From the NCBI GenBank assembly GCA_026770705.1, contig JANJGN010000026.1:39060001-39124000 (forward strand): 64,000 nucleotides of DNA, in the 5' to 3' direction. This DNA comes from Isurus oxyrinchus (Eukaryota). Positions 1,492-60,160 of this stretch are shown here, piece after piece. The stretch's first letter is position 1, and every line of letters starts with the position of its first letter. The translations under genes and the position numbers were made by a program. The notes beneath the pieces are model-generated. The model was not told the origin of the DNA, made no database searches, and saw only the letters and a program-made list of their open reading frames with translations.

Positions 1492-1905
1492 TTAAAGTCA
1501 ACTGAAGTGAATATAATGACTGAGAGTCACATTGAGAACAGAGCACATTCGCTCTGAGCTGCCAAATATGTGTACAACTGTAACAGAGACCAGAAAGAGA
1601 AAACAGGAGCTCAATATAAAGGCAAGGGAATAATTGTGAATGAGGAATGAGAAAAGTTACTTATTTACACAGGGAATTCAAGCTACTGGGAAATTATAAG
1701 CTGCTATTGCAATGAATCATAATTATCTTGCACATTTGAAAGAGAGAAACGGAAATACCGTCCATGATTGTCTCAGCTACAAATTCGGAAACAGAAACTG
1801 AAGGTATTTCATTTTTAGAGTCATGGAGAAGACTTCTCTTACATTCGGAATACAGAGATCTCAATAAGGAGCTGAGGAAAATCTACGGTGTCCAAAATTC
1901 AATGG

Positions 1906-1914
1906 TCATTTGAT
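1906..1914 (-). CDS. IGHM: IgM TM2 exon, coding part (Ile-Lys-stop)
   Basis: Minus strand tcatcctcttttacag|ATC AAA TGA; phase 0 matches the TM1 donor and gives the cytoplasmic tail K-I-K. Confidence 0.9.
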   Translation of the reverse strand: MK

Positions 1915-2052: not shown

Positions 2053-2180
2053 CTTCGCCAGAGTGACGGCAGTGCTGTAGAAAATGCTCAGGAAGAACAG
2101 GATGATGAATGTAGAAGCGGTTGTCCAGATGTTGCCGTTATCATCCTCAGAGTCTTCAATCCAGATGCGGTCTGTGGAAT
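2053..2180 (-). CDS. IGHM: IgM TM1 exon: (DST)DRIWIEDSEDDNGNIWTTASTFIILFFLSIFYSTAVTLAK
   Basis: Acidic spacer plus conserved antigen-receptor TM motif (WTTASTF..LF.LS.FYST.VT); donor AAG|gtgaga at 2052. The only usable AG acceptor is at 2173-2172 (exon start 2171); the homology-expected start at 2180 is preceded by CG. Confidence 0.93.
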
Positions 2181-2719
2181 CGACGGGGATATAGCCGAGG
2201 AGATATAATTAGATTGTTTATTAATCTAGGATATCATTTTTAAACATTTCCTTTACTCTTTCCTAAGTTATTAATGTATTCAATGTTCAATGTATATCTA
2301 CTATTAAGTGACACTCAATAACCCATCTCTGTAACTATCTCCACAGCTGTCCTTCCTTTACAATGTTTGTACAGTCCATGTCGGAAAATATAGCAACTTT
2401 TCTCCAGTATCAGTTCATTTTCGAACAATTTCGTATGATCTATTACTGGAGAATATTATGATGGGTATCGGGAGAGATTCACCGAGTTACTTATTTGGAA
2501 ACTGTGAACGTTGTTTTTAAAAGCTCAGATGTGATTTCCCATCTTGTTTGTTTATTTGTGATGGGAATGTTTGGTGCATCATTAACTTAAATCAGTTTCT
2601 CAGTAAGAGCATTGTTCAAGTGTGTTTATCAGGTAATAGAGACAATTGTCAGAGGATATGCCCGTTAAAAAAGTACATTTGAATTATACTTTCTTCAATC
2701 GCCTGAAATTTGTGTTGTG

Positions 2720-3810
2720 CTTTAGCTTTTGTGTGTGTCTGCATCAGTATCTCGCGCTTTGCATTACTGTTCGTGTGTCCATAGGTGTACATATGTGTTA
2801 ATGAGTGTGTTCATGTGCCAATGAGTGCTGATTTGTGTATTTTTGTGTCTGCGTCTTTACGTATATTTTGTTTTTCTGCCAATGTGGATGTATGCATGTG
2901 TTATTGTGTGTGCTTATGTCTTGATTTCCAAATTTACTTATTACTATCTGTGTAAATGTGTGTTTATCTGTTTAATGTGTGCCTGCTAGTATGAGTGTTA
3001 ATGTTTCTTTTTGTGTTCCACGTGTACGTCAGCATATTAATGTCTGTGTCATACGTCTGTGTGTGTGTGTATGTATGTGTGTGTTTGTGTGTATGCACGT
3101 GTGTGTGTGACACAGCGAGAAAGAGAAAGTTTTTAATATGTGCTTTTGTGTGTTGATCGATATTTAGAACTATGTATCAATGTGTGTTTATGTTTTCATA
3201 AGTACTAACGTGTGTTTTTTGTTTTCTAGTGTGTATGAGTATATTCATATTTGTGTCGACATGTGTGTTTGTGAATGTGTTAGTCTGTTCCTCTGTGTTT
3301 TTGTGTCTGGGTGTCGTCTGCTCATATGTGTGCATGTGTTAATGTGTGTCCATGCATTTGTTTTAATTTGTACGATAGTGTATGTCTTTATGTCTGTATT
3401 TATGTCATTGTGAACGTGTGATAATGCATATGCTAAAACTTACGTTTGTTCTTTGTGTCCTTGAATGAGTCTGCTTGTCCGGTTTTATCTGTGTGTGTGT
3501 GATTGTGTATATGTGTGTGAGCGAGTGTATCTGTTTGTGTATTTCTGCATGTGTGTGACTGTGTGCCTGTGTATTTGTTTATGTGTGTGATTGTGTGTAC
3601 GTGTGTGTCTGTGTATGTTTGTGATTGTGCTTGTGTGTGTGTGCGTGTGTGTGCACGTGTCTCTGTATTTGTCTATGTGTGTCTGCCTGTGTTTGTGTGG
3701 CTGCGCATGTGTGGGTTTAAATGTGTCTGCCTGTACCTGTATGTGTTTGTGTCTGTGCCTATGTGTGTGTATACGTGTGTTTGTGTCTGTCCATTTGTGT
3801 CAACTGTGTG
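2720..3810. repeat. Degenerate (TG)n-rich low-complexity tract
   Basis: Continuous tgtgtg/tgtatg runs; the C/V-rich ORFs here are artefacts. Confidence 0.9.
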
Positions 3811-5241: not shown

Positions 5242-5633
5242 TCATTGACATGAATTAACGGTGTCCATCAGTGCAAGGGAAATATTCACAAAGCTCGGTT
5301 TACCACTGGATTTATCAACCGTTCTGTTGATGATCTTCAAGGGGATCGCTTCATGTCCCACCACACAGGAGTAAGAAGTGCCGCTGGCCCACTCCTCCGC
5401 TGCAATGGATAACAGGCTGTACATGAAGAAGGAGCGATTGCCGTTCTCCGCCACTACCTCCGTGTTCTTGTAGTTTCCGGGAGCCACCGGCTTGTCATTG
5501 ACGGTCCACTTGACGAAAATCTCTCGCGGGGAGAAACCTCTCACTAAGCAGCTGAGGGAGACGAATCCCTGTGCGGAGACATCTTCTGCCGAGGGCAGGA
5601 GGACAGACACGGACGGTTCCCGCGGGTCTTTAA
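5242..5633 (-). CDS. IGHM: IgM Cmu4 plus secretory tailpiece ([14 protein letters not shown]...[24 protein letters not shown])
   Basis: Acceptor tctgcag|TT at 5634; C1-set Cys/Trp; tailpiece with NIS glycosylation site and penultimate Cys; internal donor AGTG|gtaaac at 5303 used for the membrane form. Confidence 0.97.
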
Positions 5634-6335: not shown

Positions 6336-6647
6336 CTTGTTCCTTGTGGATGGAATTTCTTAAAGGAGTCGGCAGATCCTGATGGCTCACCATGCAGTAG
6401 AACTCAGCCCCACTCAGCCAGGCTTGTGTCGAGATGTTTACGTTGCTGACCACGCTGTCGGGATCCTCTCCCGGTTGGACGGCGATCTCTGATTTCAAAG
6501 GCTTCTTTTCTTGTGTCCAGGACACGAGGATTCCATAAGGAGCATTAGAAACGATGCAGGTTAAGGACACGGTCGCCTCCAGTAAGACCTGTTCTATTGG
6601 AGGTGGCATTAGACTAATTGTGGGATCGTTGGTGCAGTGGTGATCAT
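6336..6647 (-). CDS. IGHM: IgM Cmu3 ([31 protein letters not shown]...[16 protein letters not shown])
   Basis: Acceptor ctcacag|AT at 6648, donor AAG|gtgagc at 6335; 312 bp, phase 1-1; C1-set motifs. Confidence 0.96.
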
Positions 6648-7270: not shown

Positions 7271-7585
7271 CCTCACACTTGGTGGCGTTTCGACTTTGAG
7301 TGACCCCTTGGTGAGTGACCTGACAGGTATAGACCGCGTCGCTGAACCATTCCCCAGCGGGGACTTTCAGCCGACTGGTCGCCGAGAAGTTCCCGTTCAC
7401 GTCAAAGACAGGAGAGGTGACAATTCCTGAATCCATGGGTTGTCCATTCTTCAGCCACTTCACGGTGATTGACTTTGAACGGAGATCGATGATTGAACAG
7501 ACGGCGATTGCAAATTTGTTGGTTCTGATTTCTTCCCGGGAACTCACGGTGAGGAGAACAGTTGGCGGTAAGTCAGGACGAGGAC
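7271..7585 (-). CDS. IGHM: IgM Cmu2 ([20 protein letters not shown]...[20 protein letters not shown])
   Basis: Acceptor ttttgaag|GT at 7586, donor GAGG|gtaaga at 7270; 315 bp, phase 1-1. Confidence 0.96.
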
Positions 7586-7784: not shown

Positions 7785-8084
7785 ATTGCATTTCAACGCT
7801 CTTGTCTGAGACGCTGTGTCGAACCTCACACTTGATTATGCTGCATTCCCCCTCTGACTCGGTGATGGTTAACTGGCTGCTCAGAGTGTAGGTTCCCTTC
7901 TGGTTTCTCACTGATGGGTAAGTCTTAAATCCAGTGGTGATCTGCTGCCCATCTTTCTTCCAGGTCAGGCTGGTGATTTCTGGGGAATAGTCCATCGCCA
8001 AACAGCCGTAGGTGACGGAGCCGTCGGGGTTGTGTTGCTGACAGGAGGAGACCAGGCTGTAGAGAGTGGGTGCAGACGGTGTCG
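7785..8084 (-). CDS. IGHM: IgM Cmu1 ([35 protein letters not shown]...[15 protein letters not shown])
   Basis: Acceptor ctttcccag|CG at 8085, donor CAAT|gtaagt at 7784; 300 bp; N-terminal Cys at the usual L-chain-bonding position. Confidence 0.96.
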
Positions 8085-8639: not shown

Positions 8640-10190
8640 ACATATGAACATGCGGATCAGTAGCAGGAGTAGGCCATTCGGCCTCTGGGGCCTCCTCCAC
8701 CATTCACTCCGGTCATAGCTGATCCGATTGTGGCGTGAACTCCACATTCCCGCCTACTCTTCGCTATCCTTTGACTCCCTTGTCAATGAAGAATCTCTCT
8801 ACCTCTGCCTTGAAATTTTAATGACTCATCCTCCATCGCTCTCTGGGGAAGAGAGTTCCAAAGTTTCACGACCCTTTGAGAGAAAAATAAAATCCCTTCA
8901 TTTCCGTCTGAAATGGGAGACCTCTTCTTTTTAAACCGTGTTCCCTATCGTTAGTCTCTCTCACAAGGGGAAACATCCTTTCAGCATCCACCCTGTCAAT
9001 TTCCCTCAGGATCTTACATGTTTCAATAAAATCAGCTCTCATTCTTCTAAACTCCGATGGGTACAGGCCCAGCCTATCCAAACTTTCCTCATAAGATAAC
9101 CGATGACACCTCCCAGTATCATTTGAATGAACATTCTCTGAACAGCTTCTAATGCTTTTATATCCTTTCTTAAATGAGACCAAATCTGTACACAGTAATT
9201 CAGATGAGGTCTCATCCCCACCCCGTTAAACTGTAATAAAATATCCTTCCATTTATATTATATTCCCCTTGTGATAAATGCCAACATTCCCTTTGCCTTC
9301 CTCATCACTTGCTGTTCCTGTATTATAACTTTTTGTGATTCATGCACCAAGGGATCCACATCCCTCTGTACCTCAGGGTTCTGCCATCTCTCTCCCTTTC
9401 AATAATATGCTGCTTTTGTATTCTTCCTGACAAAGTGGACAAGTTTATATTTTCCCAGATTATACTCCAACTGACATTTTTTTGCCCACTCACTTAACCT
9501 ATCGATATCCCTTTGCTGACCTTTATCCCCTCTTCACCATTTACTTTCCTATCTGTCTTTGTGTCATCAGCAAATTTAGCAAATTCATTCAGTCCTTTCA
9601 TTCAAATCATTGATATAAATTGTAAATAGGTGAAACAGCAGCATTGATCCCTTGGCACTTCACTTGTCACATCTTGCCAACATAAAATAACCAATTTATC
9701 CCTATTCTCTTTTTCCTGTTAGCTAACCAAACTTCTACCCATGCTGAAATGTTACTGCCGACACCATTATTTCGTGCAGTAACCTTTGATGTGCCACTTT
9801 GTCAAATGCCTTCTGGAAGCTCAAGTACAGCACATCCACAGGTTCTCCTTTATTCATGTTCCTTGTTACTTCCTCTATAGGCCTCAAATATTTCAGCCAA
9901 ACATGATTTCCCTTTCACAAAACCATGATGGGTTTGTGGGTCAAATGCCTAATTGCATTTGAATTTTCTAAGTGACCCGTGATAAACTCCTTAATAGATT
10001 CCAGCATTTTCGCTCTGACAGATGTTAAGCTAACTGGCCTGCAGGTTCTTACCTTCACTTTCCCTTCTTTATTTAATATAAAAGCCTCATTCCCTATTTT
10101 CCAATCTGATGAGATCTTTCCAGAATCTAGGGAAGTTTGGAAAATTAAAACCAATGCCTCTGCTATTTTAGTAGACACCTCATTAAGGCC
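8640..10190 (-). mobile_element. CR1-clade LINE, degraded RT/3' portion
   Basis: Fragments RPHLNYCVQIWS, LSYEESLDRLGLY, DWKIG...RPVSLTSVRAKMLES, interrupted by frameshifts. Confidence 0.92.
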
Positions 10191-10363
10191 AAAATATTTG
10201 TCCAACTTCTCAGCCCATTTCTTTATTTTCCTTTATTACCGGCTTGTCCAATCCATGTCCCGTGGCTGGATTGTGACCCCCAAAGCCCCTCTATATGGCC
10301 CCAGGACCCTTTGTTCTAAATGCTGGTCAGGCGGGTAAGTGGAATTGAAGATATCTGTTAAGA

Positions 10364-10476: not shown

Positions 10477-10689
10477 GAACACCCGCTGGAGCAAGGTGCA
10501 GGGAGCCAGGGGGGAAGTGCACGGAGACATTGTCTCCCATCTTTCCCAGGCACTGAGTGCCTTTCTCCGGGAATGGAATAGCTTTCAGGAGGAGGAGAGA
10601 CAATGAGGGAGAGAGAGAGAGTTAGAGAGAATGGGGACCAGGGTGTCTGGGGCCTCCACTCTCAACGGCTTTCGGCCAGCTCTCCCCGT

Positions 10690-13120
10690 TTTTGCCCAGC
10701 TCTCAGTCCTTCCCCCACACCCCGCCGAACTGCCCTGTCCCCCCACCCCACACACCTACCTCTCTGCCGTTTGTCCCCCAGCTCTCTGCACTTACTCCAT
10801 GGCTCTATTCGCTTTCGCCCGGATCTCTGACCTTTTCCACTGGCTCGCTGGCTTTTACCCTGGCTCTCTACACGTCCCACCCCCCCACTTCTCTGCCAAG
10901 AACCCCCTCCCCCCACGGTTGCTCTGCCCTTTCCCACCCACCGCTCTGCCCTTCACCCCGGCCTTTCTGCCCCTTTCCCCCTCCCGCCACTGTGCCCTTC
11001 CCCCCTCCTCTCTGCCCTTTCCCACATGCCTCTCTGCCCTTTTCCCCTCCTGCATCTGTGCCCTTTCCCCCTCCCACCTCTCTGCCCATTCTCACTCCCA
11101 CCTCTCTTCCCTTTACATCCGCCGCCTCTCTACCCTTTCTCTGTCACCTCTGTGCCTTTTCTGCCCCAGCTCTCTGCACACATTCCACTGCTCTCTATGC
11201 TTTCACCCGGCTCTCTGACCTTTTCCACTGCTCTTTTCCCATTCCCCCAGCTCACTGCCCTTTCAATTCCCTCTCTGCCCTTCCCTCCTCTGCCTCTTTC
11301 CCCCATCCGCCCCTCTGCTCTTTCCCACCAGCCTCTGTGCCCTTTCCCCCTCCCACCTCTGTGCCCTTTCCCCCTCCCACCTCTGTGCCCTTTCCCCCTC
11401 CCACCTCTGTGCCCTTACCTCCCACCTCTCTACCCTTAGCCCCTCGCCTCTCTACCCTTACCCCAGCTCGCTGCTCTTCCTGTTGACTCACTGCCCTTTA
11501 CATCACCTCTCTGTCCTTCCCCCCTCTACCTCTCTGCCCCTCCCCCACCTCTCTGCCCTTTTCCCCCTCTGCCTCTCTGCCCACCCTCCTCTCTGTCCTT
11601 CCTCTTTCTGCCTCTTTGCCCTCCTCCTGTGTACCCTTCCCCCCTCTGCCTCTCTGCCCTTCCCCACCCCACTGTCCGCCGTTTCCCCCCTCTGCCTCAC
11701 TGCCCACTCTCCTCTCTGCCCTTTCCCCGCCGCCTCTCTGCCCTTTCCCCCACCCATATTCCTGCCCTTTCCTCCTGCTGCCCCTCTGCCATTTCCCCTC
11801 ACCTCTCTGCCTGTCCCACTCCCTGCTTCTCTCCCCTGTCACCCCTCTGCCTCTTTGCCCTCCCGCCTCTCTGCCCTTTCCACCTCCTGCCTCTCTGCAC
11901 TCCCCCGCCTCACCCCTCTGGCCTCCGCCCCCTCGCCTCTCTGCCTTTTCTCCCCCAGCTCTCTGCACTTATTCCCTGACTGTCTGTGCTTTCGCCCGGC
12001 TGTCTGAAATTTCCCGTTGGCTCTCTGCCTGTTCTCCAGCTTGCTGACCTTTCTGCCGCTTCTCTGCCCTTCCCCGCCACCTCTCTGCCCGTTAAACCCC
12101 CCGCTTCTCTGCCCTCCCCCCTCTCTGCCCTTTCACCCTCCCGCCTCTCTGCCCTTCCCCCACCCACATTCCTGCCCTTTCCTCTTGCCGCATCTCTGCT
12201 GTTTCCAGTCATGTCTCTGCCTGTCCCACCCCCTGCTTCTCTGCCCTGTTACCCCTCTGCCTCTCTGCCCTCCCTCCTCTCTGGCCTTTTCCCCTCCGGT
12301 CTCTCTGCGCTTCCCCCCACACCTCTCTGCCCTCCCCCCCCCGCCTCTCTGCCTTTTCTCCCCCAGCTCTCTGCACTTACCCCATGGCTCTCTGTGCTTT
12401 TGCCCGGCTCTCTGACCTTTCTGTCACCTCTCTGCCCTTTCTGTCGTCTCTCTGCCTGTCCCACCCCCCCGCTTATCTGCCCTCCTGCCTCTCTTGCCTT
12501 TCCCCCTCAGGTCTCTCCGCACTTCCCACCCCCTCCCCGCCTCTCTGCCTTTTCTCACCCAGCTCTCTGCACTCACTCCATGCCTCTCTGTATTTTCGCC
12601 CGGCTCTCTGACATTTCCGTCGCCTCTCTGCCCATCCCACACCCCGCTTCTCTGCCCTCCCGCCTCTCTGCCCTTTCCCACTCCCGCCTTTCTGCACTCC
12701 CTGCTCTCTGCCCTTTCCTCCTTCCACCTCTATGTCCTTTCCCCCTCCCCTGCCTCTATGCCCTCCCCCCCCGCCTCTCTGCCCTTTCCCCCCGCCTCTC
12801 TGCCCTTTCACTGGCTCGCTGACTTTTCCCCCTGCTTGCTGACCTTTGCCCCATCCCAAAGCACTTTCCGCTGGATCCCTGCCCTTTTCTCTGGCTCTCT
12901 ACCCTTCACTCCCAACACCCACCACTCCCCCAGCCCCCCGGCTCTCTGCCATTTCCCTTGCCTCCCTGCCCTTTCCCACAGGCTCTCTGAGCTTTCCCCC
13001 CAACTACCTGCCCTTTCCAATGAAGCTCATTGCTCCCTTCAGCCATGCTCCACTTTCTGGCACTGCTAGGCCTCAGGCCTCGCTTCCAGGTCTCTCTTCC
13101 CCGCAGTTCCCACCCTCCCA
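10690..13120. repeat. Pyrimidine/C-rich (sense-strand G-rich) VNTR
   Basis: Many cctctctgccct(t)tccc motifs plus a longer recurring unit ccccagctctctgcact...cccggctctctgac at ~10776, 11164, 11953, 12361, 12558. Confidence 0.95.
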
Positions 13121-13139
13121 GACACCGATTTATGAAATG

Positions 13140-13720
13140 TGATCGAGTGCGTGAGCTAGTGCATGATTGACAAAGTGAGGGTAGCGACAGAGCAAGGGTG
13201 GGTGGCTGAATGAGTGAGTGTGCATAGGTGAGTGAAGGTGTGAATGAGGGTTGGTGGTGAGTGGGCATGGGTGAGTGTCTGAATGTGGGTGAGTGAGGGT
13301 GGGTGATTGAATAAGGGTAGTCGAGTGGCTGAGTGAGGGTTGGTGGGTATGTGAGGGTGGGTCTGTGAGTGAGGGTGAGTGGGTGTGTGAGGGCAGGTGG
13401 ATGAGTTATTGAGTGTCAGTGAAGGTGGGTGAGTGAGGATGGGAGAATGAGTGAGGGTAAGTGAGTGAGGGCGAGTGAGTGAAGGTTAAAGTAATTGATG
13501 GTGTTAATGAGGGTGAGTGAAGCTGGGTGAGTGGCTGAGGGTGAGTGAGGATAGGTGAGGGAGTGATATTGAGTGATGGTGAGTGAGTGAGGGTGGGTGA
13601 GTGAGGGTGAGTGAGTGAGTGTGAGTGAGAGTGAGTGTGAGTGAGGGTGGGTGAGTGAGGGTGATTGAGTGAGTGTGTGAGTGAGGGCAAGTGAGTGATG
13701 GTGAGTGATTGTGGGTAGTG
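13140..13720. repeat. (GAGT/GGGT)n low-complexity tract
   Basis: gagtgagtgagggtgggt repeats. Confidence 0.9.
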
Positions 13721-19961: not shown

Positions 19962-20009
19962 CTGCAGTCACCGTCACCATGGTCCCTTGTCCCCAGTAGC
20001 CCATGATGT
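19962..20009 (-). CDS. IGHJ: JH segment (IMGYWGQGTMVTVTA)
   Basis: WGxG motif; donor GCAG|gtaaga at 19961. Confidence 0.97.
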
Positions 20010-20405: not shown

Positions 20406-20418
20406 CCATCTAGTATAT
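20406..20418 (-). other. DH2 diversity segment ATATACTAGATGG
   Basis: 13-nt core between two 12-RSSs; frames YTRW / ILD / one with a stop. Confidence 0.93.
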
Positions 20419-20796: not shown

Positions 20797-20813
20797 ACCC
20801 ACTACTGTAGTAT
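20797..20813 (-). other. DH1 diversity segment ATACTACAGTAGTGGGT
   Basis: 17-nt core flanked by 12- and 22-RSS; frames YYSSG / TTVVG / one with a stop. Confidence 0.95.
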
Positions 20814-21238: not shown

Positions 21239-21548
21239 TCTCCTGCACAGTAATAGATGGCGGTGTCTTCAGTCTTCAGGTTCGTCATGTCCAAGGAGAA
21301 GATGTTCCTTGAAGTGTCTTTGGACGCTGTAAATCGATCTTTAATTGCTGGGGCGTAATAGTTGTATGATGAACCAGAACTATAGTATTGAAGTAGCCAT
21401 TCCAGCCCCTGTCCGGGAACTTGTCGGACCCAGCACATGTAGTAGCTGTCAAGATCGAAGCCGCTGGTTTTACAGGTCAGTCTCAGGAAGCCTCCGGGAC
21501 GCCTGGTCTCTGCCTCTGGCTGAGTCAACACAACCTCCGACTGGACAT
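21239..21548 (-). CDS. IGHV: VH exon ([52 protein letters not shown]...[10 protein letters not shown])
   Basis: Acceptor tttttacag|AT at 21549; canonical V-set Cys, WVRQ, GLEW and YYC; open frame. Confidence 0.97.
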
Positions 21549-21676: not shown

Positions 21677-21722
21677 GGGATAAGAAAGTCAGCAACAAAC
21701 TGAGAGAAATCGCTGGCCTCAT
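21677..21722 (-). CDS. IGHV: VH leader exon (MRPAISLSLLLTFLS)
   Basis: Hydrophobic signal peptide, 46 nt, donor TCCC|gtgagt at 21676; a second in-frame ATG lies at 21734. Confidence 0.93.
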
Positions 21723-31509: not shown

Positions 31510-32310
31510 GTGCAGTGCTGTAATAACTGAGGCAGGGTCTAATGTAATTTAAATATAGGTATGATCTTGCACAGAACTGAGACAGTGTCTACTGAAATAC
31601 AGAGAGAGTTCTAGATTAATATACACAGAGACATGTCAATTATAATATAAACAGAGACAGGGCCTTGTTTAATAGAAGCAAAGGCAGGGTCTAGAGTAAT
31701 ATAAACAGAAACAGGGCTGAGTGTAATATAAATAGAGACAGGGTCTAGTGTATTATAAACATACAGGGCCCAGTTTAATATAATCAGGGGCAGAGCCTAA
31801 TGCAATATAAACAGAGACAGTGTCTAGTGCAAAATAAACAGAGTCATGTCGAGTGTAATATAAACAGCGACATATCAAGTGTAATACAGACAGGGGCAGA
31901 GTCTAGTATAATATAAACAGAGATAAGGTCTAATATAATGTAAACTGAGACAGGGATCAGTGTAACATAAACAGAAATAGGGTCTTGTGTAATATAAACT
32001 GGGACAGGGCCTAGTGCAATATAAACAGAGACTATGTCTCATGCAATATAAACAGAGGCATGTCGCATATAAAAAAAAGAGACATGTTGAGTGTCATATA
32101 AACAGGGACAGGGCCTAGTGCAATATAAACAAGAGACACCGTCTAATGCAATATAAACAGAGACATGTCGAGTGTAATATAAACAGGGGCAGGGCCTAGT
32201 GTAATACAAACAGAGGCAGGGTCGACTGTAATATAAACAGAGACAGGGTCTGGCCTGTGTAATATAAACAGGGACAGGGTCCCAGTCGAAAGCAGTATCG
32301 AGACAGGGTC
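31510..32310 (-). repeat. 27-bp satellite array (inverted relative to the main array)
   Basis: Unit agtgtaatataaacagagacagggtct repeated ~28 times. Confidence 0.9.
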
Positions 32311-36130: not shown

Positions 36131-39100
36131 TTCGAATTATATTGTGCCTCAGTTTTTATCAATATCGACTCTGTATCAGTAAGCACCGTACTAGGCCTTG
36201 TCTTCCTTACATTAATTTAGAGCCTGTATTTGTAATCATTGCACTGTACCCTGCCGCAGTTTATATCAATCAAGACCCTGTGTCAGTAATCACTGCACTG
36301 GACACTGCATCAATTTATGTTGTATGTATCAGTAGTCTCCGCACTAGACTTGTCTCAGATTATATTAATCTAGATCCTGTCTGTAATCTTTGTACTTGAG
36401 GCTCTCTTAGTTTATATTAATCTAGACCCTGTAACATTAATCATTGCACTAGGCCCTGTCTCAGTTTTTATTAATCAAGACCCTATATCAGTAATCACTG
36501 CAGTAGACACTGTCTCAGTTGATATTGATCTCGAGCCTGTACCAGTAATCACTGCAGTAGACCCTGTCTCATTTTGTATTGATCTTGACACCACCTCAGT
36601 TAACTCTGCACTGGACTCTGTCTCACTTTGTATTAGCCCGGTCCCTCTATCAGTAATCACTGCACTAGATCCAGTCTCAGTTTATATTAATTTAATCCCT
36701 GCAGCTGTAATCACTGCAAGAGTTCCTGTCCCAGCTATATTTATCTGGGCCCTGAATCAGTGAACACTTCACCAGGGCCTGTCTCAGTTTATGTTGGTTC
36801 AGACCCTGTATAAGTAATTACTGTACAAGAGCCTGTCTCCGTTTATATTAATCAAGATGCTGTTTCAGTAATCATTGCACTAGACCCTGTTCTGTTTATA
36901 ATAATTTGCACCCTGAACTTAAAATCACTGCACTGGACTGTTTCTCAGTTTATATTAATCTAAAGCCTATATCTGTAATCACTGCAGTAGACCCTGTCTC
37001 ATTTTATATGCATCCAACCCTGTAACACAAATCACGGCACCAGGCCTTGTCTCAGTTTATATTAGTCTACACCCTGTGTCAGTAATCACTGCACTAAACC
37101 CTACATCATTTTATATCAATTTGGACCCTGTATCAGTAGTCACTGCACTTGAGCCTCTATCAGTTTATATTAATCTCAGCCCAGTATCAGTAAACCCTGC
37201 ACTAAGTCCTGTCTCACGTTATTTTTTATCAATCTAGACCCTGTAGCAGTAATCCCTGCCCGAGCCCAGTCCCAGTTATATTTATCTAGGCTCTATATCA
37301 ATGAACACTTCATGAAGTCCTGTCTCAATTTATGTTAGTCCAGACCATGTATCAGTAATTACTGTACAAGGGTCTGTCTCAGTTTATATTAATCAAGCTC
37401 CTTTTTCTGTAATCACTGCACTCATCCCTGTTCTGGTTATAATAATCTGCACCCTGAATCTATAATCACTGCACTTGGCCCTCTCTCAGTTTCTGTTAAC
37501 CTAGACGCTGTACCAGTAATCATTGCATAGGCCCTGCCTCAATTTATATTTATCTTGGCCCTGTATCAGTAATCACTGTATTGGACATTGTCTGAGTTTA
37601 TATTGATTGAGACCCTGTATCAGTAATAACTGCACAAGAACTTCTCTCAGTTTATATTAACTTAGGTCCCATGTCTGTAATCACTGCACTAGTGCATTCC
37701 ACAGTTTACATTAATCTAGATCCTGTATCAGTCATCACTGCACTCAACATTGTCTGAGCTTATATTGATTAAGACACTGGGCTAGACTCTGTCTCAGTTT
37801 ATATTAATCTGGATCCTGTATCAATCAGCACTGCACTATGGCCTGCCTCAGTTTATATTATTCCAGACCATCTATCAGTAATAATTGTGTTAAGCCCCAT
37901 CTTAGTTTATATTAATCTAGATCCTGAATCAGTAATGACTGCACTAGGCCCTGTCTCACTTTATATTAATCCAGATCCTGTATCAGTAATCGCTGCATTT
38001 GGACCTATCTCAGTTTATATTGATCGGGACACTGTATCAGTAATTACTGCAATATGCCCTGCCTCAGTTTATATCAATTTAGACTCTCTATCAGTAATCA
38101 CTAGACTTGGCCCTCTCTCTGTTTATATTAATCTAGACCCTGTATCAGTTTATATTAATCCATGCTCTGTGTCAGTTATCACTGCACTGGACATTGTCCA
38201 AGTTAATATTAATTGAGACCATGTGTCGGTAATCACTGCACTCGGCCCTGCCATAGTTTATATTAAGATGGATCCTGTGCACTATGCCATGCTTCATTTT
38301 GTTTATCAATCTAGGCCCTGTATCAGTAATCACTGCACTAAGCTCCATCTCAGTTTACATTAATTTAGTTCCTGTAGCAGTAATCAGGGCACGAGCCCCT
38401 GTCCCAGTTATATTTATCTGGGCCCTGTCTCAGGTTATGTTAGTTCAGACCATGTATCAGTAGTTACTGTACAAGAGCCTGTCTCAGTTTATATTAATCA
38501 AGGCTCTTTTTCAGTAATCACTGCACTCGTCCCTGTTCTGGTTATAATAATCTGCATCCTGTATCTATAATCACAGCACTTTGCCCTCTCTCATTTTCTA
38601 TTAACCTAGACCCTGTATCAGTAATCACTGCAAATTTCCCTGCTTTACTTTATATAAATTTAGACCCTAAATCAGTAATCGCTGCACCAGGCCATGCCTC
38701 AGTTCATATTAACCTAGACCATGTATCAATAATCACTGCACTAAACACTATCTCAGTTTTATTTTTATCAAGACCGAGGATCAGTAATCACTGCACTAGA
38801 CACTGTCTCATTTTATATTAATCTAGACCCTCTATCATTAGTTACTGCACTAGGCCCTATCTCATTTTATATTGATGTACACCCTGTAATTGTAATCAAT
38901 TCAATGGACACTGTCTCAGTTTATATTGATCCTGATCCTCTATCATTAATCACTGTACTAGCCCCTGTCCTAGTTTATGTTAATCTAGTCCCTGTGTCAG
39001 TAATCACTGTAATATGGCCTGCCTCAGTTCATATTAATCAGTAATCGCTGCACTAGGCCCTGACTCAGTTCATATTAATTTAGGCCATGCATCAGTAATC

Positions 39101-40847
39101 AGTGCAATGGACGCTTTCTCATTTTATATTGATGTACACCCCGTAACTGTAATCATTTCAATGGACACTGTCTCAGTTTATATTGACCCTGATCCTGTAT
39201 CATTAATCACTGCACTATCCCCTGTCCTAGTTTCTGTTAATCTAGTCCCTGTGTTAGTAATCACTGCAATATGGCCTGCCTCAGTTCATATTAATCTAGA
39301 CCCTAAATCAGTAATCGCTGCACTGCGCCCTGACTCAGTTCATATTAATTTAGGCCATGCATCAGTAATCAGTGCAATTGACACTGTCTCAGTGTATATT
39401 GATATTGATCCTGTATCATTAATCAATGCACTAGCCTCCGTCCTACATTATATTTACCTCGGCCCTGTATCAGTAATCACTGCACTATGCCCTGCCTCAG
39501 TTTTTAATCTAGACCCTGTATTAGTAATCACTGCACTAGGCTCTGTCTCAGTTTATATTAATCTAGACCCTGTATCAGTGATCACTGCACTGGACACTGT
39601 CCCAGTTTATATTAATCCCGACCCTGTATCAGTAATCCTGGCATTAGAGCCTGTCTCATTTTAAAAAAATCAAACCCTGTATAATAATCAGTGCAATGGA
39701 CGCCCTCACTTTATATTGATCTAGAGCCCGTATCAGTAATCACTGCACTAGCCGCTGTCCTCGATTTTATTTATCTAGGCCCTGCAACACTAGTCACTGC
39801 ACTATGGCCTGCCTCAGCTTATATCATTCCAGGTCCTGTATCAGTAATAACTTCACTGGACCCTGTCTCAGTTTATATTAGTCCACACCCTGTATCAATA
39901 ATGACAGAGTTAGAGAATGCCTCAATTTATTTGAGTCCAGACCGTGTATCAGTAATGACTGCATTGGCCCCTATCCCAGTATATATTTATGTCGACCGTG
40001 TATCAGTAATCACTGCACTAGTCCCTGTTTCTGTATATATTGATCTAGAACATGTGTCAGTAATCACTGCACAGGACCCAGCATCAGTTTGGATCAGTCT
40101 AAACCCTATAATCAGTAAACACTGCACTTGGCCCTGTCTCAACTCCTATTAATCTAGACCCTGTATCAGTAATCACTGCACTAGACCCTATCCCACTTTA
40201 TATTGATCTAGACCCTGTATCATAATCAGTGCAATGGACACTGTCTCACTTTATATTAATCTAGGCCCTGTATCAATAATCATTGCAGGTTCCCATGCCT
40301 CAGTTTATATCAATCCATATCCTGCATCAATAGTCACTTTTCTCATTTTAAATGAGTCCAGAACCTGTATCAGTAATGACAGAACTAGAGAATGCCTCCG
40401 CTTATTTTAGTCCAGACACTGTAACAGTAATCACTGCACTATGCCTTGCCTCTGTTTTTATCATCTAGACCCTGTATCAGTAATCATCACATTAGGCTCT
40501 GTCTTAGTTTATATTAATCTCGACCCTGTACCAACAATCACTGCACTAGGTCCAGTCTCAGTTTATATTTATATGGGCCCTGTATCAACAATCACTGTGC
40601 TGGACATTGTCTGAGTTTATATTAACCTAGACCCTGCATCAGTGTTCACTGTGCTAGACCCTGTCTCAGTTTTTATTAATCCAGACCCTGTATCAGTAAT
40701 CACTGCACTGGACCCTGTCTCAGTTTCTATTAATCTAGACCCTGTATTAGTAATGACTGCACTGGACATTGTCTGAGTTTATATTGATCAAGACCATGTA
40801 TCAGTAAACACTGCACTGGACCCTGTCTCAGTTTCTATTAATTTAGT

Positions 40848-40985
40848 CATCTATGTCAGTTATATAAGTGATGAATAATAGGAGACCCAGCACAGATCCC
40901 TGTGATACACCACTGGACACTGGCTTCCAGTAACTAAAGCATCCTTCTGTCATCATCTTCTGTCTCCTACAACAAAGCCAATTTT
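40848..40985 (-). mobile_element. Duplicated remnant of the 5' end of the 35050-36130 CR1
   Basis: Close match to 35995-36130 (cagcacagatccctgtg...ctaaagcatccttctgtcatca...ctcctacaac.aagccaattttt). Confidence 0.9.
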
Positions 40986-43900
40986 TGAAGTATATTCTTC
41001 CCTGTCTCAGTTTTTATCAATCTAGACCCTGTATCAGTAATCACCATACTAGGCCTTGTCTCAGTTTACATTAATTTAGAACCTGCATCAGTAATCACTG
41101 CACTGTGCCCTCCACAGTTTATATTAATCAAGACCCCGTGTCATTAATCACGGTACTGGACACTGCCTCAATATATATTGAGCTGGACCATGTATCAGTC
41201 ATCTCTGCACCAGACCTCTCTCAGTTTATATTAATCTAGACCCTGTTTCAGTAATCACTGCAGTAGAAACTGTCTCAGTTGATATTGATCTTGACACCAC
41301 CTCAGTTATCTCTGCACTAGACTCTGTCTCACTTTATATTAGCCCAGTCCCTCTAACAGTAATCACTGCACTAGATCCAGCCTCAGTTTATATTAATTTA
41401 ATCCCTGCAGCAGTAATCACTGCAAGAGCTCCTGTCCCAGTTATATTTATCTCGGCACTATATCAGTGAATATGGCCTTGTCTCAGTTTATGTTGGTTCA
41501 GACCTTGTATCAGTAATTACTGCACAAGAGCATGTCTCAGTTTATATTAATCAAGACCCTGTTTCAGTAATGACTGCACTTGACCCTGTTCTGGTAATAA
41601 TAATTTGCACCCTGAACCTAAAAGCATTGCACTCAACTGTTTCTCAGTTTATATTGATCTAGACCCTGTATCAGTTTATATGCATCCAACCTTATAACAC
41701 AAACCACGGCACTAGGCCTTGTCTCAGTTTATATCAATCTAGACTCTATACCAGTAATCACTGCACTTGAGCCTCTCTGAGTTTATATAAATCTCGGCCC
41801 GGTATCAGTAATCCCTGCACTATGCCCTGCCTCAGCTTCCTTTATGAATCTAGACTCTGTTTCAGTAATCACTGCACCATGCCCGTCTCAATATATATTA
41901 ATCAAGACCCTGTATCAGTAATCACTGCCCGATCCCCTGTCCCAGTTATATTTATCTAGGCCCTATATCAATGAAAACTTCACCAGGCCATGTCTCAGTT
42001 TATGTTAGTTCAGACCATGGATCAGTAATTACTGTACAAGACCTGTCTCAGTTTATATTAATCAAGCCCCCTTTTCAGTAATCACTGCACTCGTCCCTGT
42101 TCTGGTTATTATAATCTGCACCCTGAATCTATAATCACTGCACTTGGCCCTCTCTCAGTTTCTATTAACCTAGACCCTGTATCAGTAATCACTGCAGTAG
42201 TCCCTGCCTCAACTTATATTTATGTCGGCCCTGTATCAGTAATCACTGCATTGGACATTGTCTGAGTTTATATTGATTGAGACCCTGTATCAATAATTAC
42301 TGCACAAGAACCTGTCTCAGTTTATATTAAGCTAAATCCTGTGTCTGTAATCACTGCACTAGAGCATTCCTCAGTTTATATTAATCTAGATCCTGTATCA
42401 GTAATCAGTGCACTCGGCATTGTCTGAGTTTATATTGATTGAGACCCTGTGTCAGTAAACAATGGACTAGACCCTGTCTTAGTTTATATTAATTTAGATC
42501 CTGTATCAGTAATGACTGCATTAGACGCTGTCTCAGTTTATATATTAATCCAGGCCCTGTATCAGTAATCGCTGTACTTGGACCTATCTCAGTTTATATT
42601 GATCTGGACACTGTATCAGTTATCACTGCACTAGACCCTGCCTCAGTTTATATTAATCTAGGCTCTGTGTCAGTAATCACTGCACTTGGCCCTGCCACAG
42701 TTTATATTAAGCTAGACCTTGTGTCAGTAATCACTGCACAGGGCCCTGTCTCAGTTTATATTGATCCTGATTCTGTATCAGTAAGCACTGAACCAGACCA
42801 TGTCTAAATTTAGATTAATCTTGAACCTGTATCAGTAATCCCTGCACTATTCCCTGTCTCAGTTTTTATCAATCTAGACCCTGAAACTGTAATCACTGCA
42901 CTAGGCCCGGTCACAGGTTATATTAATCTACACCTTGTATCAATCATCACTGCATTAGACCCTGCATCACTTTATATTGATCTAGACTTTGTATCAGTTC
43001 TTTCTGCACTAGAGCCTGTCTCAGTTTATATTAGTCCAGAGCCTCTATCAGTAATCACTGCACTCGGCCCTATCTCCAATGTTATTGATCTAGATCATGT
43101 ATCAGTAATCACTGCAAAGGACACTGTCATATTAATCACTGCATTAGCACTTCTCCTAGTTTATATTTATCCAGGCCCTGTCTCAGTTTATATTAATCTG
43201 GACCCTGTATCAGTAAGCACTGCACTATGCCCTGCCTCAGTTTATATTAATTTAGCCCCTGCAGCAGTAATCACTGTCCGAGACCCTGTCCAAGTTATAT
43301 TTATCTGGGCCCTGTGTCAGTGGACAGTGCACCAGGCCCTGTCTCAGGTTATGTTAGTTCAGACCGTGTATCAGTGATTACTGTACAAGAGCCTGTCTCA
43401 GTTTATATTAATCAAGGCCCTGTTTCAGTAATCACTGCACTCGTCCCTGTTCTGGTTATAATAATGTGCACCCTGAATCTATAATCACTGCACTTTGCCC
43501 TCTCTCAGTTTCTATTAACCTAGACCCTGCATCATTAATCACTTCAATATGTCTTGTCTTAGTTTATATCAATCTAGACCCTAAATCAGTAATCGCTGCA
43601 CTACACTGTGCCTCAGTACATATTAATCTAGACCATGTATCAGTATTCACTGACTAGACACTATCTCAGTTTTATATTTATCAAGACCTTGGATCAGTAA
43701 TCACTGCACAAGACACTGTCTCATGTTATATTAATCCAGACCCTGCATCATTAATCACTGCACTGGACCTTATCTCAGTTTATACTGAGGTACACCCTGT
43801 AACCGTAATCACTTCAATGGACACTGTCTCAGTTTATATAGATCCTCATCCTGTATCATTAATCACTGCACTAGCCCCTGCCCTCGTTTATATTACTCTA

Positions 43901-45889
43901 GTCCCTGTGTCAGTAATCACTGCACTAGGCCCTGCCTCACTTTATATCAACCTAGACCATCTATTAGTAATCACTGCACCAGGCCCTGTCTCAATTTATA
44001 ATAATTTGGTCCCTAAATCAGTAATCGTTGCACTAGGCCCTGCCTCAGTTCATGTTAATTTAGGCCATGTATCAGTAATCATTGCAATGGGCACTGCCTC
44101 AGTTTATATTGATCCTGATCCTGCATCATTAATCACTGCACTAGCCTCTGACCTACTTTATATTCACCTCGGCCCTGTATCAGTAATCACTGCACTAGGC
44201 TCTGTCTCAGTTTACATTAATCTAGACCCGGTATCAATAATCTCTGCACTATGCCCTGCCTCAGTCTTTATCATCTAGACCTTGTATCATTGCTCTCAGC
44301 TCTGTCTCAGTTTATATTGATTCAGACACTGTTTCAGTAATCACTGGACTAGCCGCTGTCCTCGTTTTTATTTATCTAGGCCCTGCATCAATAATCACTG
44401 CACTATGGCCTTCCCTAGCTTATATCAATCTAGATCCTGTATCAGTTACCACTTCGCTCGACCCTGTCTCAATTTATATTAGTCCACACCCTGTTCCAGT
44501 AATAACAGAGCTAGAAAATGCTTCAGTTTATATGAGTCCAGGCCCTGTATCAGTAATCACTGTACTGGCCCCCTTCCCAGTATATAGTTATACAGACCCT
44601 GTGTCAGGAATCACTGCACTAGCCCCTGTCTCTGTTTATATTGATCTAGACCCTGTGTTTGTAATCGCTGCACTAGACCCAGCATCAGTTTATATCAATC
44701 TAAATCCTATAGCAGTAATCTCTGCACTTGGCCTGTGTCAAGTTCTATTAATCTAGACCCTGTATCAGTAATCACTGCACTAGACCCTCTCTCAGTTTAT
44801 ATTGATCTAGGCCCTGCATCATAATCAGTGCAATGGACAGTGTCTCATTTTATATTAATCTAGGCCCTGTATCAGTAATCACTGCACTATGCCATGCCTC
44901 CATTTATCAATCCATATCATGTATTAGTAATCAATGCACTAGACCTAACTCAGTTTATATTAGTCCAGAACCTGTATCAGTAATGACAGAACTAGGGAAT
45001 GCCTCAGTTTATTTTAGTCCAGACACTGTAACAGTAATCATTGCACTAGCCCCTGTCTCAGTTTATATTTATCCAGACCCTGTATCAATAATCAATAATG
45101 CACAACGCCAAGTCTCAGTTTATATCAAGCTGGAGCCTATATCAGTAATCACAGCACTATACCCTGTCTCAGTTCATATTAATCAAGACCCTGTATCAGT
45201 AATCACTCTACTGGACACTGCCTCCATTTATATTGATCTAGACCATGTATCAGTAATCACTGCACTTGGTCCTGTCTCAGTTTATATTAGTCTAGATCCT
45301 TTATGAGTAATCGTTGCTCTAGCCCCTGCATCAGTTTATATCAACCTCGACCTGGTAACAGTAATCACTGCACTTGGCTCCGTCTCAAGTTTTATTAATC
45401 TAGACCCGGTATCAGTAATTACTGCACTGGACACTGCCTCAGTTTATATTGATCTACACCCTGCATCAGCAATCATTGCCCTAGCCCCTGTCCTAGTTTA
45501 TTTTTATCTCAGCCTTGTATGAGTAATCACTGCACAATGGCTTGCCTCAATGTATATCAACCTTGACCCTGTATCAATACTCACTGCACTGGACATTGTC
45601 TGAATTTATATTGATCGAGACCCTGTATCAGTACACACTGGACTAGACCCTGACCCAGTTTATATTAATCTAGATCCTGTGTCTGTAATCACTGCACTAG
45701 AGCATGTTTCAGTTCATATTAATCTAGATTCTGTATCAGTCATCACTGCATGTGAGCCTGTCTCAGTTTACATTAATCTAGACCCTGTATCAGTAAGCAT
45801 TGCACTAGGCCCTGTCTCAGTTCATGATAATCTAGACCCTCCATTAGTAAGCACTGCACGAGGCACTGTCTCAGTTTATATCAATCTGG

Positions 45890-47202
45890 ATAAAAGCAAA
45901 ATAGTGCGGATGCTGGAAATCTGAAAGAAAAGCATAAAATGCTGGTAAATCACAGCAGGTCTGACAGCACCTGTGGTGAGAGAAGCAGAGCTAACTTCCT
46001 GAGACCTTATGACCTTCCTCAGAGCTAAAGAGAAGTCAAAACGTGATGACATTTACTGTTTAAGCGGGGTGGAGCAGGTCAGGCTGGATAGAAGGCAAGC
46101 AATAGGCGGGGTTAAGGTGACACTGACAAACATATCATAGGCAAACAGAAAAAGGGAGTGTTAATGGCAGTAGTAAGGCTAAAGTAGGTGCTAAAGAGTC
46201 ATGAAGGTAAGAAAGCAGAATGTGTTAACAGCAGAGCCAGAATCAGCACACTGTGAAAGAACAACATGGGACAAGTAACTGATTGCCCTTTTGGGGGTGT
46301 GGTAGGGGTGGTTGGGGATAAATGGTAGAGAAAGGAATAAAAAGGGGGATAAAAAAAAGGATAAAACAATGAATAAATGAATAAGGCTGTAAAGTGCATT
46401 ATTGGAAGATGAGTTTCTGTTCCTCCAGTTTGCGTTGGGCTTCACTGGGGCAATGCAGCAGGTCAAAGAGGGACATGTGGGTATCAGAGAAGGATGGCAT
46501 GTTGAAATTGCAAGCGACAGGAAGTTCTAGGTAATGCTTGCAGATAGACCGAAGGTGTTCCACAAAGCGGTTTGCCGGTCTGTGTTTGGTCTTCCCAATC
46601 TAGAAGACACTGCATTGGGAGCATCAAATGCAATCGACCAAATTGAAGGAGGTGCAATGAAGCGGTGCTTCACCTGAAAGGAGTGTTTGGGCCCTTGGAC
46701 GGTGAGGAGGTAAGAGGTAAAGGGGCAGGTGTTGCATCTTCTCTGATTGCTTGGGAAGGTGCCATGGGAAGGTATGAGCTGTTGCGGATGATGGAGGAGT
46801 GGACCAGGGTGTCTCGGAGGGAACAGTCCCTGTGGAATGCTGACAGGGGTGGGGGTGGAGTGGTGAGGGGAAGATGGGTTTGGTGGTGGCATCATGCTGG
46901 AGTTAGCGGAAATGGTAAAGGATGATCTTTTGAATGCGGGGATGGTGGGCTGAAACGTGAGTAAAAGGAGGACCTTATCATGATTCTGGGAGAGAGGGGA
47001 ATGTGTGAAAGCAGAGTCAGGGGAGATGGGTCGGACACAGTTGAGGGCCCTGTCAACCACAGTGGGTGGGAAACCTTGGTTAAGGAAGAAGGAAGGCATG
47101 TCCGAAGCATCATTTTGGATAGTGGCATCGTCGGAACAGATGTGAAGGAGGTGAACAAACTGACAGACTGGAATGGCGTTTTTCCAGCATTTTCTGTTTT
47201 TA
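45890..47202 (-). mobile_element. Penelope-like retroelement, degraded GIY-YIG endonuclease region
   Basis: RRCNTCPFT..TVQGPKHSFQVK then, frameshifted, CTSFNLVDCI*CSQCSVF*IGKTK...RFVEHLRS; terminal repeat at 45890-46030 and a short inverted copy at ~47178-47202. Confidence 0.88.
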
Positions 47203-58619: not shown

Positions 58620-60160
58620 GAGGCATAGACCTCTGTAGTAATAACCGAGGCATTGCCTCATGTGGTAATAACTGAGGCAGGGTTAGCGCAGTGATTACTG
58701 AATCTGGGTTAATATCAATTGATATTAATCCTCTCTCGAGGCTAGAACAGTAATGATTGTTCCGGCAGATGGATTAATAACATCCTAGACAGGGTCTGGT
58801 GCAGTAATAACTGAGGTTGCCTCCAAGGTAAGATAAACAAAAACATGATCTTGTGGAGTGAAAACAGAGGCAAGGCGAGTGTAATATAGGGAGATGTGTG
58901 GATTAGTGCAGCAACAACTAAGACAGGATTTAGCGTTGTATATACAGACACTGGGTCCAGAACAGTAATAACTGAGACAACGTCACTGTATGTAATACAA
59001 CCAGAGCTGCGGCCGAATTCAGGAACAGCTGAGACAAGGCCAAGCACTGAAATAACTGAGGGAGGAACTGGTGTAATATTATCATTGACATAATCTATTT
59101 CAATATAAACAAAATCAGGGTCTGGTGCACTAATACTGAGACAGGGCCGAGTGCACCAATTATTGATACAGCACCTACAGTAATACAAACGAAGGCTGGG
59201 CCTAGTATCAGCAATTATTGAGCAGGATTTAGTGCAGTAATAACAGACTTAACCTTGTGTAGTATAAACAGAGACATGGCCTACACAGAAATAACAAAGG
59301 CAGTGTCTATTTTAATATAAACAGAGACAATATCTGGTGTAATATAAACTTTGGCAGGGTCTTGTGTAATATAAATTGAGACAGGGTCTAATGTAATATA
59401 AACTGAGACAGGGTCTTGTGTAATATAAACTGAGATAGAGCCTAGTGCAATACAAACTGAGGCAGGGTCCAGTGTAATATAAACAGAGACGGGCTCTAAT
59501 GTAATATGAATCGAGACGGGTTCCAGTGTAATATAAGCTGAGACGAGGTCTAATGTAATATAAAATGGAGACTGTCTACTGTAATATAAATTGAGATAGG
59601 GGCGAGCAGAATGTAAGCAAAGGCATGATCTAGTGGAATAAAAAGTGGAGCAGTGCCGAGTGCAGTATTAATCGAGACAGGGTCTTGTGTAATATGAACA
59701 GCGACATGATCTAGTTTAATAATAACTGAGGCAGGAGCTCGTGAAGGGAAACTATTACGGGGCATTTTGCAGTTTTATCTGATACAGGACCTTGTCAAAT
59801 ATCAACTGAGACAGAACCTGGTACAGAAATTACCAACACAGGACCTGGATTCATATAAACAGAGAAATGGACAAGTGCAGCAATAAGAGAGAGAGACACA
59901 GTATTATACAATAAAAATAGTGACAGGGCATCGTATGATCTAAACAGAGACATGGACTGGTGCAGCATTGGCCGAGGCATCCCCTAGTTTAGTATGAATG
60001 TGGCAGGGTTTAGTAGTGTAATAACTGAAATAGCCTTGTGCCATGCATACTGGAACATGTTCTAGCTTAACATAAGCAGAGACAAGTACTGTTGCAGTAA
60101 CAACTGAGATATGGATTATTATCACATTAGCCAAGACAAGGTTTAATTCATTGATAACTG
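58620..60160 (-). repeat. Degenerate 27-bp satellite array (inverted)
   Basis: gtgtaatataaactgagacagggtct and gtgcagtaataactgag units. Confidence 0.85.

What the first reader, a model, noticed from the sequence alone, without database searches (positions are those of the whole stretch)
2172..2190. TM1 splice acceptor appears mutated (AG to CG), with an in-frame fallback 9 nt downstream
The minus strand reads ...atctcctcggctatatccccgtCG|AT TCC ACA GAC CGC ATC TGG ATT GAA GAC. The bases after CG encode D-S-T-D-R-I-W-I-E-D, matching the D-S-x-D-H-I-W-I-E-D start I recall for shark mu TM1. The ancestral acceptor would therefore be tAG at 2182-2181. The only AG left is cacAG at 2173-2172, which keeps the frame but deletes 3 residues. 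The cluster may make a shortened or inefficient membrane BCR while the secretory form is intact.
Basis: partly seen in the sequence, partly recalled or inferred. Interest (0 to 1): 0.7.

Follow-up and report, generated by a model that had tools for sequence, protein, structure and literature searches.

The report
Shark IgM copy, broken membrane splice
One of over fifty near-identical shark antibody (IgM) gene copies has a one-letter change in the splice signal of its membrane anchor, and a spare signal nine letters on would likely still give a working receptor three amino acids shorter, so this is probably ordinary wear in a redundant family, unless it is a sequencing error.

Summary
Observation confirmed in the assembly. 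The window holds a complete, unjoined shark IgM heavy-chain cluster (minus strand). All frames are open and all splice sites canonical except the TM1 acceptor, which reads CG at 2182-2181. 52 of 52 other TM1 copies examined have AG. Contigs of three presumed RNA runs join Cmu4 at the canonical position, so the 'paralogs start at 2171' refutation fails. Whether the C is real is unresolved: DNA-run contigs show only A, but they also lack this copy's other private alleles. The +9 CAG is in frame and removes D-S-T. It is ordinary coding sequence, present in 40 of 40 paralogs, and lies at the distance where cryptic acceptors are most often activated in human genes (PMC1636351). The shortened spacer would still be one residue longer than in solved mammalian IgM receptors. 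At this copy's private substitution rate about 0.2 splice-base hits are expected, and 6 of 40 paralogs carry lesions. Best reading: a real, probably mild mutation in one redundant cluster. No sign of a selected secretion-only gene. The scan had not noted this site before. Low interest.

The parts
2181..2182 (-). Ancestral TM1 splice acceptor, reading CG instead of AG (A>C at 2182)
   Evidence: 52 of 52 other copies AG
2172..2174 (-). Fallback CAG inside TM1 (+9, in frame, removes D-S-T); 11 of 14 pyrimidines upstream
   Evidence: present in 40 of 40 paralogs; use untested
2154..2156 (-). Second, weaker in-frame AAG at +27 (8 of 14 pyrimidines)
2208..2212 (-). Branch-point-like motif, A at 2209: 28 nt from the ancestral site, 37 nt from the fallback (predicted only)
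   Evidence: motif scan
2053..2180 (-). TM1 exon, 128 nt, open, GT donor intact, no private substitution
   Evidence: matches mammalian membrane mu chains at E 1e-8
1906..1914 (-). TM2 exon coding part (I-K-stop), canonical acceptor; private synonymous change at 1909; AATAAA at 1491 and 1455
   Evidence: TM1-TM2 joints in presumed-RNA contigs of related copies
5242..5303 (-). Secretory tailpiece with penultimate Cys, intact
5304..5633 (-). Cmu4 exon; internal GT donor for the membrane form after 5304
6336..6647 (-). Cmu3 exon, open, canonical sites
7271..7585 (-). Cmu2 exon, open, canonical sites
7785..8084 (-). Cmu1 exon, open, canonical sites
19962..20009 (-). JH with RSS and GT donor
20406..20418 (-). 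D2 with two 12-spacer RSS like those of paralogs
20797..20813 (-). D1 with 12- and 22-spacer RSS
21239..21548 (-). VH exon, open, 23-spacer RSS; CDR2 two residues longer than 28 of 29 paralogs
21677..21722 (-). Leader exon; upstream promoter region matches paralogs

Best explanation
This is an otherwise intact shark IgM heavy-chain cluster whose TM1 acceptor reads CG, likely through a real copy-specific A>C mutation, and splicing would likely move to the in-frame CAG nine bases downstream, giving a membrane chain three residues shorter that is predicted to still work. Shown: the cluster anatomy, the CG, AG in all other copies examined, the frame of the fallback, and canonical joining in related transcripts. 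Inferred: (1) the base is real; (2) the same branch point and pyrimidine tract now deliver the spliceosome to the next AG, perhaps less efficiently; (3) losing D-S-T from the spacer is tolerated, since the acidic stretch, the transmembrane helix and the K-I-K tail are untouched; (4) with more than fifty copies, selection on any one is weak, so the change is drift, not adaptation.
For: All other exons, splice sites, RSS and the promoter match intact paralogs. The copy is an old singleton: best other VH 91%, best C region 92%. It carries 21 private changes in 2227 non-coding sites, far above the error rate one expects of a chromosome-scale assembly (my knowledge; the rate here is unknown). About 0.25 hits in 26 splice bases are expected at that rate, or about 0.16 without the 3' UTR (by hand). 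The coding exons show no frameshift. No AG lies between 2226 and 2173; the fallback is CAG with 11 of 14 pyrimidines against 10 of 14 at the ancestral site. In human disease genes, cryptic acceptors after YAG mutation are biased to exons, peak at +8 nt and have a median of 12 nt (PMC1636351, passages and Table 1). Spacer between the Cmu4 end and the aligned TM1 position: 7 residues in solved mammalian membrane mu chains 7xq8_C, 8ema_A and 8e4c_B, 11 in the canonical shark form, 8 after the shift (counted by hand).
Against: No read or contig shows the C: all 34 contigs over 2182 in four DNA runs of one sample show A. This is weak, because they also miss this copy's other private alleles. No junction at the fallback is among the 21 loose ends listed for four presumed-RNA runs (7 more not shown). 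In wild-type copies the +9 CAG appears silent. 52 of 52 other copies keep AG, and five shark homologs (P0001-P0005) and two ray-like ones keep the full spacer length where a TM tail is shown, so the position is conserved. The predicted branch point is 37 nt from the fallback, near the long end of the usual range (my knowledge). The +8 peak comes from a collection of cases selected for having a cryptic site, so it gives no rate of rescue versus skipping.
Confidence: 0.55

Rival explanations
1. The mutation is real but rescue is poor. TM1 is skipped or the intron kept, so the cluster makes little or no membrane IgM. B cells that rearrange it would not be selected, and it is an early pseudogene.
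For: The A of the AG is nearly invariant (established knowledge). The +9 CAG is not seen in use in the loose ends listed. 6 of 40 paralogous C regions carry lesions (L067, L069, L076, L077, L084, L098). The window's D2 has a private change that puts a stop in one frame. Skipping TM1 would join Cmu4 to TM2 out of frame and give a short tail with no anchor (frame read).
Against: There is no second lesion in any exon, splice site or RSS. TM1 has 0 private changes, though P = 0.30 at the non-coding rate, so this is uninformative. Private changes in the secreted exons are 5 replacement and 4 silent against 1014 and 303 sites, leaning to constraint but too few to test. The fallback has a good context.
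Confidence: 0.22
2. The C at 2182 is a consensus error of the assembly, and the cluster is a normal functional IgM gene.
For: It is the lone exception among 53 copies. No allelic twin of this cluster is in G000 to confirm it. All DNA contigs laid show A. The gene is otherwise intact. L077's GT>TT donor is likewise not shared by its 99.66% twin L092, which fits either error or recent mutation.
Against: The copy has 0.6-0.9% private non-coding substitutions, 14 transitions to 8 transversions, as from real divergence. The change is a substitution, not a homopolymer indel. 32 of 40 paralogous C regions pass the script with no flag and two more flags are alignment artefacts, so the region is assembled cleanly. 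The contig test cannot see this copy: 27% of the stretch's 31-mers are shared by five or more paralogs, about the 0.26 share held by the best run.
Confidence: 0.2
3. The change is selected: the cluster is specialised for secreted IgM, for example as a constant-region recipient for VDJ switched in from other clusters.
For: The secretory path is intact. The VH is distinct. Shark V regions can be expressed with the C region of another cluster (PMC4279169 and PMC5192425, passages).
Against: The change is confined to one copy with no twin. TM1, TM2 and their other splice sites show no decay. The closest VH relative (L054 cluster) keeps AG. One hit is within chance.
Confidence: 0.03

Closest known systems
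Elasmobranch IgM heavy-chain minicluster (VH-D1-D2-JH plus one C gene; PMC5192425 section 3.1 read; PMC2435157 passages)
   Same: Same layout, four C domains, secretory tail, TM1 and TM2. TM1 is 79-88% identical to Scyliorhinus and Chiloscyllium proteins P0001-P0005.
   Different: TM1 acceptor reads CG. VH CDR2 is two residues longer than in 28 of 29 paralogs.
Cryptic 3' splice-site activation after mutation of the YAG (PMC1636351, passages and tables)
   Same: An A>C at position -2 is among the listed mutation types (9 of 48 at that position). An exonic YAG lies at +9, next to the reported +8 peak.
   Different: Those data are human and come with RNA proof. Here use of the site is only predicted.
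Mammalian membrane mu chain in solved IgM receptor structures (7xq8_C, 8ema_A, 8e4c_B, 7wsp, 7xt6)
   Same: Conserved transmembrane segment, aligned without gaps over 33 residues.
   Different: The mammalian spacer is 4 residues shorter than the canonical shark one and 1 shorter than the predicted shifted form.
Nurse shark IgM1gj and catfish secretion-only IgD locus (PMC4279169, PMC5192425, passages)
   Same: Precedents for clusters or loci devoted to secreted antibody. That IgM1gj lacks a membrane form is recalled and was not in the passages read.
   Different: IgM1gj is germline-joined and lacks Cmu2. This cluster is unjoined, has four C domains and keeps intact TM exons.

Membership tests
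Elasmobranch IgM heavy-chain minicluster | [quoted passage not shown] | tested here: met
   21548-19962; RSS match paralogs
Elasmobranch IgM heavy-chain minicluster | Four C-mu domains, open, with canonical splice sites | tested here: met
   Cmu4 matches mu chains at E about 1e-38
Elasmobranch IgM heavy-chain minicluster | Secretory tailpiece after Cmu4 with penultimate Cys and internal donor | tested here: met
Elasmobranch IgM heavy-chain minicluster | TM1 and TM2 exons of the mu type | tested here: met
Fully functional IgM cluster | Canonical AG acceptor at TM1 | tested here: not met
   CG at 2182-2181 in the assembly; base not confirmed in reads
Fully functional IgM cluster | Rearranged and expressed as membrane and secreted forms | tested here: inconclusive
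   Presumed-RNA contigs come from related copies; contigs cannot show absence
Cryptic exonic 3' splice site activated by YAG mutation | Nearby exonic YAG with pyrimidine tract and no intervening AG | tested here: met
Cryptic exonic 3' splice site activated by YAG mutation | Site is used in transcripts of the mutant allele | not testable with these tools
   Needs raw RNA reads of this cluster; only contigs were offered
IgM1gj-like secreted subclass | Germline-joined VDJ and loss of Cmu2 | tested here: not met
   Unjoined V, D, D, J and intact Cmu2
IgM pseudogene | Stops, frameshifts or lost exons or RSS | tested here: not met
   None found apart from the one acceptor

The most novel reading that the evidence does not exclude
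A shark IgM cluster with a distinct VH has been turned by one splice-site change into a secretion-biased gene. Its constant region would be used mainly by plasma cells or as a recipient of VDJ switched in from other clusters, making it a natural membrane-exon mutant that tests whether shark B cells need surface IgM from a locus to use it.
Probability: 0.05. Interest if true: 0.5.

Novelty: new member of a known kind. Interest (0 to 1): 0.15.

Why it matters
Little by itself: one base in one of more than fifty copies, of a kind expected in a redundant family. For annotation, the cluster should be flagged as 'TM1 acceptor non-canonical, status unknown', not called a pseudogene. If the base is real and the cluster is expressed, it is a small natural experiment on spacer length and on whether a cluster needs its own membrane form to pass heavy-chain selection in sharks.

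Tried and rejected
Read check in DNA runs: uninformative, since contigs drop single-copy variants and whether organism A is the window's species is unknown. Presumed-RNA contigs: no listed piece carries this copy's full set of private alleles, which is no evidence of silence. A trap: the Cmu4 exon of 39 of 40 paralogs ends in C-G, so their spliced mRNA aligns over 2182-2181 and mimics the CG; RNA pile-ups cannot confirm the base. Rejected: (a) that paralogs start TM1 at 2171; (b) an upstream replacement acceptor, since the nearest AG at 2227-2226 runs into a stop; (c) that the fallback was newly created (40 of 40 have it); (d) copying of the C from cDNA, as one matching base is chance-level. 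Selection test on TM1: too few sites. In one search TM1 was cut one base too long, so its printed tails are wrong; this was corrected. Script flags on L075 and L094 are alignment artefacts of a shifted, in-frame C2 acceptor and were dropped from the lesion count; my checkpoint note had counted L075. Literature: searches listed no paper on a shark TM1 acceptor mutation; one search listed none on spacer deletion; Lee et al. 2008 on nurse shark IgM pseudogenes was not held and may describe similar lesions. No supplements were read. No structure or complex prediction was run.

Full report
What is there. The minus strand of the window carries one complete shark IgM heavy-chain cluster: leader 21722-21677, VH 21548-21239, D1 20813-20797, D2 20418-20406, JH 20009-19962, Cmu1 8084-7785, Cmu2 7585-7271, Cmu3 6647-6336, Cmu4 5633-5304, secretory tail 5303-5242, TM1 2180-2053 and TM2 1914-1906. 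All frames are open. RSS and promoter match 29 paralogous V regions (part of its V rows was cut and redone). Every splice site is canonical except the TM1 acceptor, which reads CG at 2182-2181.

The observation. AG stands at this place in 29 of 29 loci, 38 of 39 pattern matches, the exception being the window, 40 of 40 fetched C regions and 11 of 11 further clusters found through their V genes. That is 52 of 52 distinct other copies, many of them close twins. The searches score only their best candidates, so more copies may exist. A pattern for a non-A base matched the window alone. Five shark proteins from other species keep the same spacer length (P0001-P0005); these are gene predictions, not cDNAs. 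In three of four presumed-RNA runs, from three studies and two organisms, a contig joins the end of Cmu4 at the canonical position; the fourth has a contig ending at 2181. No join at 2171 is among the 21 loose ends shown; 7 were not shown.

Is the base real? Not settled. Four DNA runs of one sample show A in all 34 contigs over the site. They also show only the paralog letter at other sites private to this copy. The best run holds 0.26 of the sampled words, about the 0.27 that five or more paralogs share. So these contigs do not contain this copy. No allelic twin exists in G000: best other VH 91%, best C region 92%. Indirectly, the copy has 21 private changes in 2227 non-coding sites, 8 of them in the 3' UTR. 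About 0.16-0.25 hits in the splice dinucleotides are then expected if selection is weak. The change is a substitution in a cleanly assembled region. I put real at about 0.8; the assembly's error rate is unknown to me.

What would happen. No AG lies between 2226 and 2173, and the upstream one leads to a stop. The next AG is a CAG at +9, in frame, with 11 of 14 pyrimidines before it and a branch-like motif 37 nt upstream. It removes D-S-T. A weaker in-frame AAG lies at +27. In human disease genes, cryptic acceptors after YAG mutation lie mostly in the exon, with a peak at +8 and a median of 12 nt (PMC1636351, passages and tables); that set was selected for cryptic use and gives no rescue rate. 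The CAG is present in 40 of 40 paralogs, so it is ordinary coding sequence, not a compensating change. From alignment coordinates, solved mammalian membrane mu chains have 7 residues between the Cmu4 end and the aligned TM1 position, e.g. 572 to 580 in 7xq8_C. The canonical shark form has 11 and the shifted form 8. Length alone is therefore unlikely to disable the receptor (inference). The secretory path is intact in sequence.

Background. Of 40 paralogous C regions the script flagged 8; two flags (L075, L094) are artefacts of a shifted in-frame acceptor, leaving 6 with lesions. L077 has an isolated GT>TT donor that its 99.66% twin lacks. Nurse sharks have 9-12 functional IgM clusters and three pseudogenes (PMC5192425, passages); pseudogene groups are also named in PMC2435157 (passages). 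Tests for selection on this copy are underpowered: 0 private changes in TM1 (P = 0.30), and 5 replacement and 4 silent changes in the secreted exons.

Rivals. Real with working rescue 0.55; real with poor rescue, an early pseudogene, 0.22; assembly error 0.20; selected secretion-only cluster 0.03. The last draws on switching between clusters (PMC4279169 passages; PMC5192425 passages and section 3.1), but nothing here points to it: the closest VH relative keeps AG and the TM exons show no decay.

What is known. It is a member of the elasmobranch IgM minicluster family by all structural tests, and it fails only the canonical-acceptor test of a fully functional copy. It is not IgM1gj-like. Searches listed no report of such a lesion, but the key nurse shark paper (Lee et al. 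2008) was not held. PMC6795676 was read in passages and PMC2193153 in passages; other papers were seen only as search listings. The scan's own notes hold nothing on this site and only IgM tail remnants elsewhere in the genome (unchecked).

Verdict. Interest 0.15. A by-product may deserve more attention: two paralogous clusters carry an exact D2-J spacer inversion bounded by the heptamers.

Noticed in passing
L037 (G000:C152, V near 301835) and L038 (G000:C26, V near 36123413), oriented positions about 2850-3245: The D2-J spacer (window-equivalent 20405-20010) is exactly inverted between the two heptamers. D2 is joined to J's RSS and J to D2's 12-spacer RSS, with a few extra bases: reciprocal hybrid joints standing in the genome, in 2 of 29 V loci. 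A germline hybrid joint between D1 and D2 is described in PMC2193153 (passages); this one is D2-J.
   Followed up: partly
L034, L040, L041, L048: Germline-joined paralogs: D2-J joined in three, D1-D2 joined in one, of 29 V loci. The window's cluster is unjoined.
   Followed up: partly
L077 versus L092 and L098: L077 has an isolated GT>TT donor at Cmu3 that its 99.66% twin L092 lacks; L098 has a one-base deletion in Cmu1. Either recent mutations or assembly errors.
   Followed up: partly
L075, L094, L062, L063, L115-L117 (start of Cmu2): The Cmu1-Cmu2 linker varies in frame among clusters by 3 to 27 nt, in L075 and L094 through a shifted acceptor, so in-frame linker shortening is common in this family.
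   Followed up: partly
window 21239-21548: VH has a CDR2 two residues longer than 28 of 29 paralogs, shared only with L054, and an extra Cys before the first framework Trp.
   Followed up: partly
window 20406-20418: D2 has an A where paralogs have G, making a stop in one reading frame.
   Followed up: no
window 1824-1868: Seven private changes cluster in the membrane-form 3' UTR; may partly be an alignment effect near an indel.
   Followed up: no
window 36400-45900, 31600-32300, 59300-59600: A long degenerate 54-bp tandem array and related 27-bp arrays upstream of the cluster.
   Followed up: no
window 8700-10200 and 10650-13700: The J-Cmu1 intron holds what looks by eye like a decayed LINE fragment and a long purine-rich low-complexity tract; the LINE label is recalled, not tested.
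   Followed up: no
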